DNA from: Streptomyces virus Yaboi
Taxonomy: Duplodnaviria; Heunggongvirae; Uroviricota; Caudoviricetes
Virus record (IMG/VR): IMGVR_UViG_2974625447_000001
Span: 57,808-121,807 of that record
Direction: 5' to 3' (one strand)
DNA length: 64,000 nt
The translations under genes were made by a program, and so were the position numbers. The notes beneath the pieces were generated by a model. It made no database searches. It was not told the DNA's origin and worked only from the letters and a program-made list of their open reading frames with translations. Shown piece by piece: positions 16,204 through 40,150 of the stretch (its first letter is position 1; the number at the start of each line of letters is the position of its first letter).

Positions 16204-16725
16204 ATGACGGTACTTCTGCGAACAATTCATGGAAGCCATCTGTATGGCCTCGCTCACGCAGACAGCGATAAGGATATCTACGAAGTAGTTACAACCACTC
16301 GCACTAAGCGTAAGCGAAACATTAAGCAGACCATTTCAAATGGTGTTGACAAGACGACGGTAGATATGTCAACATTTATGAGGATGGTTGATGATTGCGT
16401 ACCTCAAGCACTTGAAGCGCTATGGACGCCGGTAGCTGAGATCGATAAGATCCACGAATTCCGGACACAATATCGAGTGAATCGCGCCAAGATGAAGGAT
16501 GTGTACGTAAGAACTGCTCTGAATTTTGCCAAGAGTGACGGAATTAAGCAGAAGAAGCACGCAGTGCGGCTCTTGCTGAACCTTGGTCACACTTTGGAAT
16601 TTGGAAAGTTCAATCCTCGATTGGATGCAATGGATAAGATCATTATCAATGCATCTGTCGGAGATGCGGGAAAGTATGATGCTGTGTTCGACGCTCTTAT
16701 TGATGAGGTCGGCCGGTGGATATGA
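16204..16725 (+). CDS. Pol-beta-superfamily nucleotidyltransferase
   Basis: HGSHLYGLAHADSDKDIY = GS-x9-DxD NTase signature; 173 aa. Confidence 0.5.
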   Translation: MTVLLRTIHGSHLYGLAHADSDKDIYEVVTTTRTKRKRNIKQTISNGVDKTTVDMSTFMRMVDDCVPQALEALWTPVAEIDKIHEFRTQYRVNRAKMKDVYVRTALNFAKSDGIKQKKHAVRLLLNLGHTLEFGKFNPRLDAMDKIIINASVGDAGKYDAVFDALIDEVGRWI

Positions 16726-16734
16726 TCCCACCAT

Positions 16735-16811
16735 TGGGGCGTATACCCTCTGTCTGATAAACAGTTGAAAGGTTAAGTGGTCACATGTGGGTTCAACTCC
16801 CACCGTCCCAA
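16735..16811 (+). tRNA. non-canonical tRNA-like gene W1 (anticodon-like loop GAT, Ile)
   Basis: acceptor tggggcg/cgtccca (7 bp) and T-arm gtgggTTCAACTcccac are canonical. The only anticodon-like hairpin (tctgt-ctGATaa-acagt, U33/A37) sits at positions 15-31 directly after a 7-nt linker tataccc. A 21-nt region with a D-loop-like AAGTGG follows. Confidence 0.45.
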
Positions 16812-28334: not shown

Positions 28335-28448
28335 AGGAGTGTAGTTTAATTGGCAAAACCGCGAAATGCACTGCCGAAAGTGATGTGGCGTAGCCCGCAG
28401 TGAGTAGGTAACAGAGTAGCAGTTGCGGGTTCGAGTCCCGTCGCTCCG
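28335..28448 (+). ncRNA. tRNA-like RNA with about 40-nt internal insertion (pseudo-tRNA or insertion-containing tRNA)
   Basis: 5' acceptor-like aggagtg plus canonical D-arm gtttAATTGGCAaaac; 3' T-arm gcgggTTCGAGTcccgt plus cgctccg; 64 nt between them with no anticodon arm. Confidence 0.3.
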
Positions 28449-28585
28449 CTAGCCTGAGACGACGATCCGATGTAGGTCCCCTAGGGCTTGCGCAGGCCCG
28501 AAGGGCATTCGGGAAAGGTTCCTAGCTAGGTCCGTCTATCAATAGGGTGAGAGTTTTGACAGTTTCCTCATAATAAACTGTCCCC

Positions 28586-28878: not shown

Positions 28879-28956
28879 GCCCTAGTATCGCCACTGGCTT
28901 CTAACCAGTCGTTAACAGCGTAATGGAGTATGCAGGTTCGAGTCCTGTCTAGGGTA
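28879..28956 (+). tRNA. non-canonical tRNA-like gene W2 (anticodon-like loop TCT, Arg)
   Basis: acceptor gccctag/ctagggt; 7-nt linker tatcgcc; hairpin actgg-ctTCTaa-ccagt at positions 15-31; 22-nt region with AATGG; T-arm gcaggTTCGAGTcctgt; same layout as W1 and W3. Confidence 0.45.
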
Positions 28957-32515: not shown

Positions 32516-33196
32516 CGGTGGAGAGTAGGTTGACACAGGCCCTTGCCTCTAGTACAGTAGTAACCAAGCAAGCAAGGACTAATTGTGGTATCCTTTAATA
32601 ACAATTGAAGGAGACTACAATGCTTAAGTTTGCGAAGAATCTACAACCTGGCGATATTACACCGTATGGACGTGTGGTTGCCAATCAGCTACTATGGGCT
32701 AACAAGACAGTCCAACTCACATTGGCTGAGCAAAGTAAGAACGTTTATCTGAAAAAGTACAAGATCGTTCGAACTAACAAGGGATAAGAATGAGCATCGA
32801 AGACGAGATCGCTAAGGAAGTTGCCAAGGAGGCCGAAGAGGAGAAGGCTTCTGGTAAGTCCTGGAAGGTAATCGCTGCTGAGGCGGCCTGGAAGTTCACC
32901 AAGGAAAAGGGTTATCCTGCCTTCAAGGCTGGAGCTAAGTACCTTTACGCAAAGGGCAAGGACGTCAAGAATCGCCCCGAGAAGCCCAGCGAGAAGAAGG
33001 CTTCAAGCCTACGCCCTGGTGACGTTACCGCTCTTGGGCAGGTTGCGGAAGCCAAGCGTGATCCGGTCGAGAAGAATAACTATCAGATCTCTTTCATCGG
33101 TTCCAATGGAATTCGAATTGAGAGGGTTCCTGGAAACAAGAAGTTCGGCGTTGTAGAGCGTCGAAGCGTTAAGTAATAGCGCGGCCTTCGGGCCTA

Positions 33197-33273
33197 GTCT
33201 CCATATCTCCTCTGCCTCCTAAGCAGTTGAAAGAGTAACCGGATACATGTGGGTTCGACTCCCACTGGGGACA
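33197..33273 (+). tRNA. non-canonical tRNA-like gene W3 (anticodon-like loop CCT, Arg)
   Basis: acceptor gtctcca/tggggac; linker tatctcc; hairpin tctgc-ctCCTaa-gcagt at 15-31; 21-nt region tgaaagagtaaccggatacat (near-identical to W1); T-arm gtgggTTCGACTcccac. Confidence 0.45.
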
Positions 33274-33275
33274 CG

Positions 33276-33304
33276 TTGACAGATCGGCCCGGTGAGGGTA
33301 GAGT
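33276..33304 (+). promoter_or_regulatory. sigma-70-like promoter TTGACA-N17-TAGAGT
   Basis: cgTTGACAgatcggcccggtgagggTAGAGTagtt. Confidence 0.5.
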
Positions 33305-33516
33305 AGTTAACAGATCGACAGTGAGCGTCTGGAGTACACTACACTGGAGGTCAAATGAAGGTCTGGATCGTAACGACTGACATCTGTTGCTGCGGCGAAG
33401 AAGTCATTGAGGTTTTCTCAACAGAAGAGAAGGCTCAGGAGTTCGTTGACAGCGGAGAAAAGTTCAAGTACGCTGAGATCACAGAGTGGGAAGTGCAGTA
33501 AACCCGAAAGGGTTTT

Positions 33517-39259: not shown

Positions 39260-39537
39260 GGGGATGCCTTGGTTTCGACTGGCGCGGATAACCTTAGTTT
39301 GCAGCCTGACATTGAGGAGATGTCATTAAAAAGCCTCAAACCTATAAATGCCAACTCTAACGTTGCATCTGCCTACGCCCTAGCGGCGTGATGGCCGGGC
39401 GGCAACTGCCTAGGAACAGAAAGTTGCGAATGTTTGGCCCGGTGGGGATAAACACATGCAGTACCTGCTTGACACATGGCTGTGTATAGACTACTGTTAG
39501 ATTCGTCAGGACGCGGGTTCGACTCCCGCCATCTCCA
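39260..39537 (+). ncRNA. ssrA: tmRNA (ssrA), tag reading frame ANSNVASAYALAA
   Basis: 5' GGGGATGCCTTGGTTTCGACTGG resembles E. coli tmRNA 5' end; 3' GGACGCGGGTTCGACTCCCGCCATCTCCA nearly identical to E. coli tmRNA T-arm/acceptor; acceptor ggggatg/catctcc with G3-U70; internal frame 39350-39391 GCC AAC ... TAC GCC CTA GCG GCG TGA. Confidence 0.8.
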
Positions 39538-40150
39538 CTTAAGGATCATCATGCAGATGACTGCAAGGTCTACTATGATAGACTTTGATCTCACCGAGCG
39601 CGATGCTCGAACAATTCAGAAAAGCATGAAGACTGGACCAGTCACTCTCAAGGTTACTAGGGTTCAGATCAGCTACACATATGGTGCCGTTCTTGTTGGC
39701 ACTGAGCGTAATCCTGGTCCTCACTACAAGGTGAGGGTGTCAGGATATCGAATGAAGGCTGGCATGAAGCAACGGGATACTGTTGTCCAGCACAGCTATC
39801 TCAACCCTAATCTGCCGGATTGGCTGGAGCAGATGGTTGTTGACAACGCCCCAAACTGGTACTAGGATGTAGACATGCCGAACTGGATGCGACTACCTAA
39901 CACACGCAAGGATGTCTCACTCGGATACCGAATGGGATCTGCGTTCGAAAATGGCTATGGCGATGAGGGACCTCTCGCCAGGGGCCTTGTTGTTGGAGGA
40001 TGTGTTTTCCTCCCCCTTCTAATTGTCATCGCTCTCTTTGGCGGTGCAGCCTACGGACTCTGGGAGCTTGCCACATGGCTCTGGACTATGATAGCCTGAT
40101 GAAGAAGTGGATGGACACCATCCGCAAGATCGAGCAGCGTAAGGACTGAA

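What the first reader, a model, noticed from the sequence alone, without database searches (positions are those of the whole stretch)
33197..33273. W3 copy of the non-canonical tRNA-like family (CCU anticodon loop)
gtctcca-tatctcc-[tctgc ctcctaa gcagt]-tgaaagagtaaccggatacat-[gtggg ttcgact cccac]-tggggac-a. The post-hairpin segment is near-identical to W1 (tgaaaggttaagtggtcacat). The hairpin stem has the same U-U mismatch at the closing pair as W1. It is preceded by a GC hairpin (ggccttcgggcc) and followed by a TTGACA-N17-TAGAGT promoter.
Basis: seen in the sequence. Interest (0 to 1): 0.7.

Follow-up and report, generated by a model that had tools for sequence, protein, structure and literature searches.

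The report
Phage tRNA-Arg with relocated D-arm
This 77-base stretch is very probably a working arginine tRNA gene whose D-arm has been split and moved to the other side of the anticodon arm, one member of a widespread, phage-only family of non-cloverleaf tRNAs that standard gene finders miss or mislabel.

Summary
Window 33197-33273 (+) of Streptomyces phage Yaboi has a 7-bp acceptor stem, no D hairpin, an anticodon arm with loop CUCCUAA (CCU, Arg), a 21-nt linker and a canonical T-arm.

It is the positional ortholog of the canonical tRNA-Arg(CCU) of sister phages, with the same acceptor stem, anticodon loop and flanks.

The linker is not junk. Three of its bases pair with three bases just after U8-A9-U. 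The next part reads U-A-A-Y-Y-G-G-N…A-U, which looks like a D-loop. So canonical segment 10-21 appears to have moved from before the anticodon arm to after it.

I found 212 such genes in phage contigs and phage genomes of Streptomyces, enterobacteria and crAss-like phages. The new helix is 100% paired, with compensatory changes at all three pairs.

All members carry Ile or Arg anticodons. The base after GG is A in 79/79 Arg members and U in 84/85 Ile members, matching the known synthetase determinants. Rearranged genes replace same-anticodon canonical genes (6/84 versus 118/293, p = 1e-9).

ARAGORN finds 6 of 212. I found no published description. Expression and charging are untested.

The parts
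33197..33203 (+). Acceptor stem, 5' strand (GTCTCCA, positions 1-7)
   Evidence: Pairs with 33266-33272 (7 pairs, one G.U). It is identical to the acceptor stem of the canonical tRNA-Arg(CCU) of Karimac and Genie2. Family-wide, this helix is 99.4% paired and all 7 pairs show compensatory changes.
33204..33206 (+). U8-A9-U connector (TAT)
   Evidence: T8 and A9 are invariant and T10 is nearly invariant in 98 type-A members. All three are invariant in 43 type-B members. None of these bases was part of the search patterns.
33207..33209 (+). Helix H, 5' strand (CTC). Proposed equivalent of D-stem positions 23-25.
   Evidence: Pairs with GAG at 33233-33235. Across the family, 163 of 164 are complementary in 14 triplet combinations. 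H is 100% paired in both alignments, and compensatory changes are seen at all three pairs across the two sets.
33210..33210 (+). Single junction base C (proposed position 26)
   Evidence: Invariant C in type A. It is not paired with the linker: only 23% pairing in type B.
33211..33227 (+). Anticodon arm: stem TCTGC/GCAGT (U.U plus 4 bp) and loop CTCCTAA, giving U33, anticodon CCU and A37
   Evidence: The loop is identical to that of the canonical tRNA-Arg(CCU) orthologs. Four stem pairs covary, and the U.U is conserved in 95 of 98 members.
33228..33232 (+). Linker L1 (TGAAA), which takes the place of the variable loop
   Evidence: It is NGAAA in type A, where GAAA was fixed by my pattern. In type B it is 8 nt, C-R-T-T-A-A-N-N, and is conserved although it was not in the pattern. 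Its role is unknown.
33233..33235 (+). Helix H, 3' strand (GAG). Proposed equivalent of D-stem positions 10-12.
   Evidence: See the 5' strand entry. A rival local hairpin that uses this strand (columns 39-41 with 48-50) is only 73.8% paired and has no compensatory change.
33236..33248 (+). D-loop-like segment TAACCGGATACAT. Proposed numbering: U13, A14, A15, Y16, Y17, G18, G19, A20 … A21, U48.
   Evidence: TAA, GG and AT are shared by all subtypes. The base after GG is A in 79/79 Arg members and T in 84/85 Ile members. This matches A20 as the ArgRS determinant and U20 as the IleRS determinant (PMC9976931).
33249..33265 (+). T-arm: GTGGG / TTCGACT / CCCAC
   Evidence: A canonical GGTTCRANYCC T-arm, 98% paired with compensatory changes. 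In Yaboi it equals the W1 T-arm. In Enygma and Quaran19 the same gene carries a T-arm nearly identical to that of the canonical Arg ortholog.
33266..33273 (+). Acceptor stem, 3' strand (TGGGGAC) plus discriminator A73. No CCA is encoded.
   Evidence: The discriminator is A or G in 75 of 79 Arg members. CCA follows the discriminator in 59 of 164 members elsewhere, against 1 in 64 expected by chance.
33184..33195 (+). GC hairpin GGCCTTCGGGCC just upstream (context, not part of the tRNA)
   Evidence: Present in Yaboi, Karimac and Genie2, ahead of both the canonical and the rearranged alleles. It is replaced where an endonuclease gene is inserted (Enygma, Quaran19). It has no T-run and is not scored as a terminator.
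33276..33304 (+). Promoter-like site TTGACA-17-TAGAGT downstream (context; it would drive gene 164 and the following tRNAs)
   Evidence: 10 of 12 consensus matches. All but two of its aligned columns are identical in five phages.
16735..16811 (+). Paralog W1, rearranged tRNA-Ile(GAU)
   Evidence: 91.1 bits with model R1. H = ACC/GGT, GG followed by T, and A73.
28879..28956 (+). Paralog W2, rearranged tRNA-Arg(UCU), type B linker
   Evidence: 53.5 bits with model R1. H = CGC/GCG and GG followed by A. It is annotated in the record as tRNA-Val(aac). The canonical tRNA-Arg(UCU) sits at the same site in StarPlatinum.

Best explanation
Window 33197-33273 is a functional gene for a tRNA-Arg(CCU) that reads AGG codons, but it has a non-cloverleaf secondary structure.

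Compared with a normal tRNA, the segment that forms the 5' strand of the D-stem plus the D-loop (canonical positions 10-21) lies after the anticodon arm instead of before it. The order is:

1. Acceptor 5' strand
2. U8-A9-U
3. A 3-nt strand, CTC (equivalent to positions 23-25)
4. One base (position 26)
5. The anticodon arm
6. A 5-nt linker
7. The complementary strand GAG (positions 10-12)
8. U-A14-A15-Y-Y-G18-G19-A20…A21-U48
9. The T-arm
10. Acceptor 3' strand and A73

**Shown:**
- the 3-bp long-range helix that encloses the anticodon arm;
- the conserved D-loop-like motif;
- orthology to a canonical tRNA-Arg(CCU);
- restriction of the family to Ile and Arg;
- the match of the post-GG base and the discriminator to ArgRS and IleRS determinants;
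- replacement of canonical isoacceptors.

**Inferred:**
- The helix stacks on the anticodon stem as the D-stem does, and G18G19 dock on the T-loop, so the L-shape and elbow are kept with altered chain connectivity.
- The three new junctions (9 to 22/23, 47 to 10, 21 to 48) join residues that are neighbours in the classical tRNA core: the 9-23-12 triple, the 45-10-25 triple, and A21 next to 8-14 with 48 pairing 15.
- The RNA is transcribed within the phage tRNA cluster, trimmed by RNase P and 3' processing, and given CCA by a CCA-adding enzyme.
- It is charged by host ArgRS through C35, U36, A20 and A73. It then supplies AGG decoding for a 49% GC phage.

The high GC content of Streptomyces and its rare use of AGG are from my own knowledge and were not tested here.
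For: **Orthology.** Karimac and Genie2 carry an annotated canonical tRNA-Arg(cct) at the same site, with an identical acceptor stem, anticodon loop and flanks. Yaboi, Stanimal, Enygma, Quaran19, TomSawyer and JimJam carry the rearranged allele. The same canonical/rearranged alternation occurs at the W2 site and the W1 site.

**Structure.** In 98 unique type-A sequences, 94.2% of cells are paired, against 62.3% in shuffles and 37-49% with slid partners. Helix H is 100% paired, with CG/AU/GC/UA at two of its pairs. In 43 type-B sequences from a different seed pattern, H is again 100% paired, and the third pair shows CG/GC/UA. H has 14 triplet combinations, and 163 of 164 are complementary. The rival linker hairpin fails.

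**Identity.** Anticodons in 212 members found without any anticodon constraint are UCU 84, UAU 83, GAU 22, ACG 12, CCU 6, UCG 4 and GCG 1. The base after GG is A in 79/79 Arg and U in 84/85 Ile members. N73 is A in 85/85 Ile and A or G in 75/79 Arg members. Both match PMC9976931 Table 1. U12-A23 is present in 14/16 Ile(GAU) members.

**Function.** In loci with at least 8 canonical tRNAs, a canonical gene with the same anticodon is present in 6/84 cases, against 118/293 controls (odds ratio 0.11, p = 1e-9). CCA is encoded after N73 in 59/164 members.

**Need.** Yaboi has no canonical tRNA-Arg(CCU) or tRNA-Arg(UCU) anywhere in its checked or annotated sequence. Yet AGG is 7.9 and AGA 9.3 per 1000 codons, together 28% of Arg codons.

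**Specificity.** Model R1 scores W3 at 86.9 bits, against 25.8 bits or less for canonical tRNAs.
Against: - No expression, processing, aminoacylation or ribosome data exist for any member. Everything here is comparative.
- Thermodynamic folding gives only weak support (z = -1.1), and the MFE for W3 draws a shifted 2-bp version of helix H.
- The three-dimensional argument is inference from textbook tRNA geometry, not a model.
- The Levitt-type 15-48 pair could not be tested by covariation, because both positions were fixed by my patterns. The two divergent sequences seen (L092, L124) do not show a compensatory change.
- Part of the conservation in type A (GAAAG, TAA, GG, CAT, GGTTC) was imposed by the search pattern.
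- W1 coexists with a canonical tRNA-Ile(GAU) in Yaboi, so replacement is not absolute.
- My literature search covers open-access papers and bioRxiv only.
Confidence: 0.8

Rival explanations
1. A tRNA-like RNA that is made and folded but not used for decoding. It could be a decoy or sponge for host tRNA-targeting nucleases or modification enzymes, an RNase P punctuation signal for processing the polycistronic tRNA/mRNA transcripts, or a primer or regulatory RNA.
For: The fold is conserved, which any structured RNA would show. The elements sit between genes in tRNA/ORF arrays where processing signals are needed. Phage tRNAs are known counter-defence tools (PMC10264068 and PMC11464382, listed).
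Against: A decoy or punctuation element has no need to keep U33, a specific anticodon, A37, the synthetase determinant at position 20 in step with the anticodon, the correct discriminator, or an encoded CCA. It would also not be mutually exclusive with the canonical gene of the same anticodon. Yaboi would be left with no phage tRNA for 28% of its Arg codons.
Confidence: 0.1
2. A decayed tRNA gene, that is, a pseudogene left after recombination or endonuclease-associated damage to the D-arm region of tRNA-Arg(CCU).
For: ARAGORN does not call it, and the Rfam score is marginal. In Enygma, Quaran19, TomSawyer and JimJam an endonuclease gene abuts it, and the annotated CDS runs into it.
Against: The same architecture is present in about 170 unique sequences from phages of unrelated hosts, with compensatory changes in all four helices. 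It is exactly 77 nt in all 98 type-A members. Identity nucleotides track the anticodon. Homing-endonuclease domains are no more frequent beside rearranged tRNAs than beside canonical ones.
Confidence: 0.04
3. An ordinary cloverleaf tRNA with a degenerate D-arm and a long (class II-like) variable arm. This is how the Rfam alignment reads it. Alternatively, a cloverleaf of another identity, as GenBank annotators read relatives: tRNA-Val(aac), tRNA-Leu(UUA), tRNA-TERM.
For: The Rfam alignment places 18 nt in the variable region.
Against: Only 4 nt remain where the 15-nt D-arm should be. The 'variable region' forms no hairpin of its own: the candidate stem is 73.8% paired with no covariation. Instead it pairs back across the anticodon arm. 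The hairpin with the 7-nt loop has an invariant U33 and A37, and its loop is identical to the anticodon loop of the canonical ortholog. The AAC, TAA and TTA 'anticodons' lie in the unpaired linker.
Confidence: 0.03

Closest known systems
Canonical bacterial/phage tRNA-Arg(CCU), e.g. Streptomyces phage Karimac gene 164 and Genie2 gene 163 (Rfam RF00005)
   Same: Same genomic site. Identical 7-bp acceptor stem, anticodon loop CUCCUAA and discriminator A. It has a T-arm of the usual kind. A20-type determinant, G18G19, U8 and A14 are all present.
   Different: There is no D hairpin between the acceptor and anticodon arms. The strand that pairs with the '23-25' strand, and the D-loop, lie 3' of the anticodon arm. 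There is no separate 44-48 variable loop leading into the T-stem. The length is 77 nt rather than 73.
D-arm-lacking mitochondrial tRNAs of animals: mammalian mt-tRNA-Ser(AGY) and nematode mt tRNAs (PMC7609411, PMC9427863)
   Same: No D hairpin after the acceptor stem. The anticodon helix is extended by extra pairs, and the RNA is still an adaptor.
   Different: By my own knowledge of the mt-tRNA literature, the mitochondrial forms are shortened and lack the G18G19/T-loop elbow. Per PMC9427863, their dedicated mitochondrial synthetase recognises them by shape. This family keeps full length and a D-loop-like GG segment at a new place, keeps cytosolic-type identity elements, and is found in phages of bacteria.
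Synthetic D-arm-less 'mini HisT' accepted by the E. coli translation machinery (PMC11551756)
   Same: It shows that bacterial aaRS, EF-Tu and ribosomes can use a tRNA without a conventional D-arm.
   Different: It is man-made, with the D-arm simply deleted (62 nt). It has a predicted Y-shape and needs a pnp mutation to escape degradation. The phage family is natural and relocates the D-segment instead of deleting it.
Circularly permuted tRNA genes of the red alga Cyanidioschyzon merolae (recalled from memory; not checked here)
   Same: The order of tRNA segments in the gene differs from the canonical order.
   Different: In the alga the whole gene is circularly permuted, and processing restores a normal cloverleaf. 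Here the 5' and 3' ends are in their normal places and an internal segment is transposed, so the mature RNA itself must be non-cloverleaf.
tRNA-like domain of tmRNA (one lies at window 39260-39538) and viral tRNA-like structures
   Same: An acceptor/T-arm module with a reduced D region.
   Different: Those lack an anticodon arm used for decoding. This element has a complete anticodon arm identical to that of a real tRNA-Arg.

Membership tests
tRNA (Rfam RF00005; cloverleaf adaptor) | 7-bp acceptor stem with an unpaired discriminator at the 3' end | tested here: met
   GTCTCCA/TGGGGAC plus A. The helix is 99.4% paired with compensatory changes at all 7 pairs in the family.
tRNA (Rfam RF00005; cloverleaf adaptor) | Anticodon arm: 5-bp stem and 7-nt loop with U33 and a purine at position 37 | tested here: met
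   Loop CTCCTAA. The columns for U33 and A37 are invariant. The stem is 4 bp plus a conserved U.U at 27-43.
tRNA (Rfam RF00005; cloverleaf adaptor) | T-arm: 5-bp stem and a GTTCRANY loop | tested here: met
   GTGGG TTCGACT CCCAC. It is 98% paired in the family.
tRNA (Rfam RF00005; cloverleaf adaptor) | D-arm hairpin (stem 10-13/22-25 with loop 14-21) between position 9 and the anticodon arm | tested here: not met
   Only 4 nt lie where the model expects 15. The pairing partner and the D-loop-like motif lie 3' of the anticodon arm.
tRNA (Rfam RF00005; cloverleaf adaptor) | Score at or above the curated Rfam gathering threshold, and detection by a standard tRNA finder | tested here: inconclusive
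   Rfam gives 29.9 bits against a gathering score of 29, so it only just passes. ARAGORN does not call it and finds only 6 of 212 family members.
tRNA (Rfam RF00005; cloverleaf adaptor) | Is aminoacylated and decodes on the ribosome | not testable with these tools
   Only indirect evidence is available: identity nucleotides, encoded CCA in relatives and replacement of canonical isoacceptors.
Bacterial tRNA-Arg identity set (PMC9976931) | C35, U/G36, A20 and A/G73 | tested here: met
   The anticodon CCU supplies C35 and U36. A follows G18G19 (CCGGA), and the discriminator is A. Family-wide, A20 is present in 79/79 Arg members and A/G73 in 75/79. That the A after GG occupies structural position 20 is inferred.
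D-arm-lacking mitochondrial-type tRNA | Loss of the D-arm with loss of the D-loop/T-loop elbow contacts, shortened length, and organellar context | tested here: not met
   It is full length (77 nt). A conserved UAAYYGG motif and a canonical T-loop are retained. The context is a phage genome.
Class II tRNA (long variable arm) | A self-paired hairpin in the variable region, in addition to a normal D-arm | tested here: not met
   There is no D-arm. The candidate hairpin in the linker is 73.8% paired with no compensatory change.

The most novel reading that the evidence does not exclude
Phages carry a natural, monophyletic class of tRNAs with a different chain topology: the D-stem strand and D-loop are transposed to the 3' side of the anticodon arm. 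These tRNAs are fully functional with ordinary bacterial synthetases, EF-Tu and ribosomes.

On this reading, the altered topology is itself adaptive. It could let the phage's Ile(AUA/AUY) and Arg(AGR/CGN) adaptors escape host tRNA-directed nucleases or phage-induced host-tRNA degradation that recognise the conventional D-arm/variable-loop face. The topology would have spread horizontally among phages of Actinobacteria, Proteobacteria, Bacteroidetes and many uncultured hosts.

The restriction to Ile and Arg would follow from the small mutational distance between the two identities on this scaffold: position 35 A/C and position 20 U/A.
Probability: 0.25. Interest if true: 0.93.

Novelty: new variant of a known kind. 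Interest (0 to 1): 0.86.

Why it matters
**Structural biology.** Recent literature still states that all known bacterial tRNAs are cloverleaves and that arm length is the only structural variation in cytosolic tRNAs (PMC11551756). A review of non-canonical natural tRNAs never mentions phages or viruses (PMC7609411). A large, conserved family of phage tRNAs with a rearranged topology would be a natural counter-example. It also makes a long-standing question directly testable: how much of the cloverleaf connectivity, as opposed to the L-shape, do RNase P, the CCA-adding enzyme, synthetases, EF-Tu and the ribosome actually need?

**Annotation.** ARAGORN misses 97% of members. Those that do get annotated are mislabelled as tRNA-Val(aac), tRNA-Leu(UUA), tRNA-OTHER or tRNA-TERM. 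As a result:

- phage tRNA repertoires for the classic rare codons AUA, AGA and AGG are systematically undercounted;
- spurious 'suppressor' tRNAs may feed into claims of stop-codon recoding.

**Engineering.** A naturally validated alternative scaffold charged by ArgRS or IleRS is a candidate starting point for orthogonal tRNAs.

Tried and rejected
1. **Homing-endonuclease linkage.** The W3 allele abuts an endonuclease VII or HNH gene in Enygma, Quaran19, TomSawyer and JimJam, and Roth49 has an HNH gene next door. I therefore tested whether the rearranged genes travel with homing endonucleases, or are endonuclease-immune alleles. Pfam scans of 150 ORFs flanking rearranged tRNAs and 150 ORFs flanking canonical tRNAs in the same loci gave similar low rates of HNH-type domains. 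I rejected this as a general feature, though local co-conversion in the Streptomyces phages remains possible.

2. **A local hairpin in the linker,** as drawn by RNAfold. Rejected by pair counts.

3. **A fourth pair extending helix H** (junction base with the last linker base). Rejected at 23% pairing.

4. **Presence in cellular genomes.** One scan of 185,579 genomes gave 26 pattern hits. Eight are chance matches with no stems, including the only isolate genome. The other 18 are all on MAG contigs, and the three I examined sit in dense, phage-like tRNA arrays. There is no evidence for chromosomal bacterial copies.

5. **Thermodynamic significance.** The z-scores are near -1, which is uninformative.

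6. **Literature.** Seven full-text searches with different wording found no description of this architecture.

7. **Levitt-pair (15-48) covariation.** Not testable, because both positions were fixed by my seed patterns. Two divergent sequences were uninformative.
Full report
**What is there.** The window is Streptomyces phage Yaboi (NC_048730.1; window position = record position minus 57807). It lies in the unannotated gap between genes 163 and 164.

The Rfam tRNA model matches these exact coordinates at 29.9 bits, just above its gathering score of 29. It does so only by deleting the D-arm (4 nt where the model has 15) and inserting 18 nt in the variable region. ARAGORN reports 41 tRNAs and a tmRNA in the window but not this element.

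Two more elements of the same build are in the window. W1 is at 16735-16811 with loop CTGATAA. W2 is at 28879-28956 with loop CTTCTAA.

**It is the ortholog of a real tRNA-Arg(CCU).** At the same site, behind the same upstream hairpin and ahead of the same promoter-like sequence, Karimac and Genie2 carry an annotated canonical tRNA-Arg(cct). StarPlatinum and many other relatives also have an annotated tRNA-Arg there.

In Karimac and Genie2 the acceptor stem (GTCTCCA/TGGGGAC), anticodon loop (CTCCTAA) and discriminator are identical to those of the Yaboi element. Yaboi, Stanimal, Enygma, Quaran19, TomSawyer and JimJam carry the rearranged allele instead.

The alignment shows what differs. The 16-nt D-arm is absent, and about 17 nt (GAAAGAGTAACYGGATRC) are present between the anticodon arm and the T-arm.

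The same alternation occurs at the other two sites:

- **W2 site:** StarPlatinum has a canonical tRNA-Arg(tct) where Yaboi has W2.
- **W1 site:** TomSawyer has a canonical tRNA-Ile where most relatives have W1.

**The family is large and not confined to Streptomyces phages.** BLAST of the W2 core found 81-85% identical 65-nt matches in about 250 phages of Escherichia, Salmonella, Klebsiella, Proteus and others. These include Felix O1-like, roughly 145-kb and jumbo genomes. W1 and W3 matched crAss-like phages and a 462-kb uncultured phage.

That gave 175 unique sequences, of which 164 satisfy at least 18 of the 20 base pairs of the model below.

A covariance model built from 98 of them scores W1, W3 and W2 at 91.1, 86.9 and 53.5 bits. 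Every canonical tRNA in the window scores 25.8 bits or less. The model also picked up further members with other linker subtypes that the patterns could not have seeded.

**Secondary structure.** Three bases following the conserved U8-A9-U (CTC in W3) are complementary to three bases in the linker (GAG), so this helix H encloses the anticodon arm.

- Across 164 sequences, H occurs in 14 different triplet combinations, and 163 are fully complementary.
- On 98 unique 77-nt type-A sequences, 94.2% of all pair cells are standard pairs. That compares with 62.3% in column shuffles and 37-49% when partners are slid by 1-3 columns. H is 100% paired, with CG/AU/GC/UA and CG/UA/AU/GC/UG at two of its pairs. 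The third pair was fixed by my pattern.
- On 43 type-B sequences from a different seed, H is again 100% paired. The pair that was fixed before now shows CG/GC/UA.

All three pairs therefore covary.

A rival local hairpin in the linker, which RNAfold draws for W3, is only 73.8% paired and has no compensatory change. A possible fourth pair is not supported, at 23%. Thermodynamic z-scores are weak (about -1), so the case rests on comparison, not on folding energy.

**Reading the linker as a transposed D-segment.** After the 3' strand of H, all subtypes read U-A-A-Y-Y-G-G-N…A-U and then enter the T-stem. This is the pattern of a D-loop: A14, R15, Y16, Y17, G18, G19, N20 … A21.

In a normal L-shaped tRNA the D-stem stacks on the anticodon stem. 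The strand that continues upward from 39-43 is 10-13, which leads into the D-loop. In the rearranged RNA the 3' strand of H and the GG segment occupy exactly that place, and the 5' strand of H occupies the place of 23-25, followed by position 26 and the anticodon stem.

The gene is thus best described as a tRNA in which segment 10-21 has been moved from between 9 and 22 to between 47 and 48. The three new junctions join residues that are neighbours in the classical tRNA core: the 9-23-12 triple, the 45-10-25 triple, and A21 beside 8-14 with 48 pairing 15. This last step is inference from textbook tRNA structure, not a result obtained here.

Two observations fit the numbering. G10-C25 dominates, including 37 of 43 in type B, where it was not imposed by the pattern. 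Also, 14 of 16 Ile(GAU) members carry U12-A23, a known E. coli tRNA-Ile determinant.

**Evidence that it is a working tRNA.**

1. An anticodon-agnostic scan found 212 members. Their anticodons are UCU 84, UAU 83, GAU 22, ACG 12, CCU 6, UCG 4 and GCG 1, so every one is Ile or Arg.
2. The base after G18G19 is A in 79 of 79 Arg members and U in 84 of 85 Ile members. The discriminator is A in 85 of 85 Ile members and A or G in 75 of 79 Arg members. These are the bacterial ArgRS (A20, C35, U/G36, A/G73) and IleRS (U20, A73 …) determinants listed in PMC9976931.
3. CCA follows the discriminator in 59 of 164 members, against 1 in 64 expected by chance.
4. In loci that also hold at least 8 canonical tRNAs, a canonical gene with the same anticodon is present in only 6 of 84 cases. 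For the same anticodons in loci without a rearranged copy, the figure is 118 of 293 (odds ratio 0.11, Fisher p = 1e-9; for UCU alone, 2/39 versus 22/36). Rearranged genes therefore take the place of canonical ones.
5. Yaboi has no canonical tRNA-Arg(CCU) or tRNA-Arg(UCU). None is in the window. ARAGORN finds none in record 1-50000 or 121000-131250. The record's consecutive tRNA tags leave none annotated between. Yet its genes (48.9% GC) use AGG at 7.9 and AGA at 9.3 per thousand codons, together 28% of Arg codons. That the Streptomyces host is GC-rich and uses AGR rarely is general knowledge, not tested here.

**Distribution.** The type-A pattern occurs only 26 times in one genome each of 185,579 bacterial and archaeal species. 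Eight of these are chance matches without stems, including the only isolate genome. The other 18 are all on MAG contigs. The three I examined lie in arrays of 15-20 tRNA genes within 8 kb, as in large phages. On present evidence the family is phage-specific.

**Annotation state.** ARAGORN detects 6 of 212 members. Where annotators did record them, the identity is usually wrong:

- W2 is 'tRNA-Val(aac)' in the Yaboi record.
- The W1 ortholog is 'tRNA-Leu, codon UUA' in EGole.
- Enteric-phage members are 'tRNA-OTHER' or 'tRNA-TERM'.

**Why rearranged?** This is unresolved. I tested one idea, that the rearranged alleles are linked to homing endonucleases, which abut the W3 allele in four sister phages. 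HNH-type domains turned out to be no more frequent next to rearranged tRNAs than next to canonical ones in the same loci.

The restriction to Ile and Arg, together with the near-identity of Ile and Arg members outside position 35 and position 20, suggests a single origin. Identity switching between two class I synthetases that read the anticodon, position 20 and N73 would then have followed.

Evasion of host tRNA-directed nucleases or RNA decay is an attractive possibility, given current work on phage tRNAs as counter-defence and the PNPase sensitivity of a synthetic D-arm-less tRNA. I have no evidence for it.

**Comparison with what is known.** It works like, and is orthologous to, a bacterial-type tRNA-Arg(CCU). 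It fails one defining structural feature of the cloverleaf, the D hairpin at 10-25.

- It differs from mitochondrial D-arm-less tRNAs in keeping full length, a GG-containing D-loop-like segment and cytosolic identity elements.
- It differs from permuted algal tRNA genes in that its termini are normal, so the mature RNA must itself be non-cloverleaf.
- It differs from class II tRNAs in having no hairpin in the variable region.

Seven full-text searches found no description of such tRNAs. Two relevant papers treat the cloverleaf as universal in bacteria or do not mention phages. The library is open-access only, so a prior report elsewhere cannot be excluded.

**Verdict.** The element is most likely a functional tRNA-Arg(CCU) of a widespread, phage-restricted, previously unrecognised architectural class (confidence about 0.8). 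What is missing is any direct evidence of expression, charging and three-dimensional fold.

Noticed in passing
window 28335-28449 (+): Another odd tRNA-model hit: 115 nt, 31.2 bits, not called by ARAGORN. It has a normal-looking D-arm (GTTT…AAAC) and T-arm but about 40 extra bases in the middle. It does not belong to the rearranged family (15 bits with model R1).
   Followed up: no
window 28879-28956 (Yaboi record 86686-86764); L203:305-381; L008:595-676; L006:595-676: Family members that were annotated carry wrong identities: tRNA-Val(aac) in Yaboi, tRNA-Leu(UUA) in EGole, tRNA-TERM in Salmonella phage 7t3, and tRNA-OTHER in Klebsiella phage Roth49. The 'anticodons' were read from the unpaired linker. 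tRNA-TERM calls of this kind could be mistaken for suppressor tRNAs.
   Followed up: partly
window 16204-16725 (+), immediately upstream of W1: The 'nucleotidyltransferase' next to W1 matches Pfam RlaP (RNA-repair-pathway DNA polymerase beta family; E = 5.9e-6, 26.6 bits against a cutoff of 23). The adjacency of this gene, W1 and the FtsK-like gene holds in many of the roughly 80 related Streptomyces phages. Yaboi also encodes a Ro-like/TROVE RNA-binding protein (record 80556-82181) and a tmRNA (window 39260-39538). Together these suggest an RNA repair or quality-control module within the tRNA region.
   Followed up: partly
L004:1-445 (Enygma), L005 (Quaran19), L202:380-769 (TomSawyer): Endonuclease VII or HNH genes are inserted directly beside tRNA genes at the W3 and W1 sites. 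They coincide with a switch of allele, in either direction between canonical and rearranged. In Enygma the annotated endonuclease CDS runs 42 nt into the tRNA and stops at the TAA of the D-loop-like motif. This is consistent with local co-conversion during homing, although family-wide there is no enrichment.
   Followed up: partly
alignment A6 columns 32-39 (type-B linker; W2 = window 28910-28917): The 8-nt linker of type-B members, C-R-T-T-A-A-N-N, is strongly conserved even though it was not part of the search pattern. It is unpaired in the model, and its role is unknown. It might make tertiary contacts in the groove of helix H or serve in protein recognition.
   Followed up: no
L168:10185-10274 (-) and L186:11835-11924 (-): A 90-nt Arg(ACG) member carries an extra hairpin (GGTATC-GTA-GATACT) between the D-loop-like segment and the T-stem. 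So the scaffold tolerates an additional arm at that junction.
   Followed up: no
window 33355-33501 (+): Gene 164, just downstream of the promoter-like site that follows W3, is a 48-aa protein matching Pfam DUF7336 (E = 1.6e-13). Small ORFs like this are interleaved with tRNAs throughout the cluster.
   Followed up: no
window 33249-33265 versus 16787-16803: In Yaboi the W3 T-arm (GTGGGTTCGACTCCCAC) is almost the W1 T-arm. In Enygma and Quaran19 the same gene has a T-arm nearly identical to that of the canonical Arg ortholog (CCCGGTTCGAATCCGGG). This points to recombination or gene conversion between rearranged paralogs within a genome.
   Followed up: no
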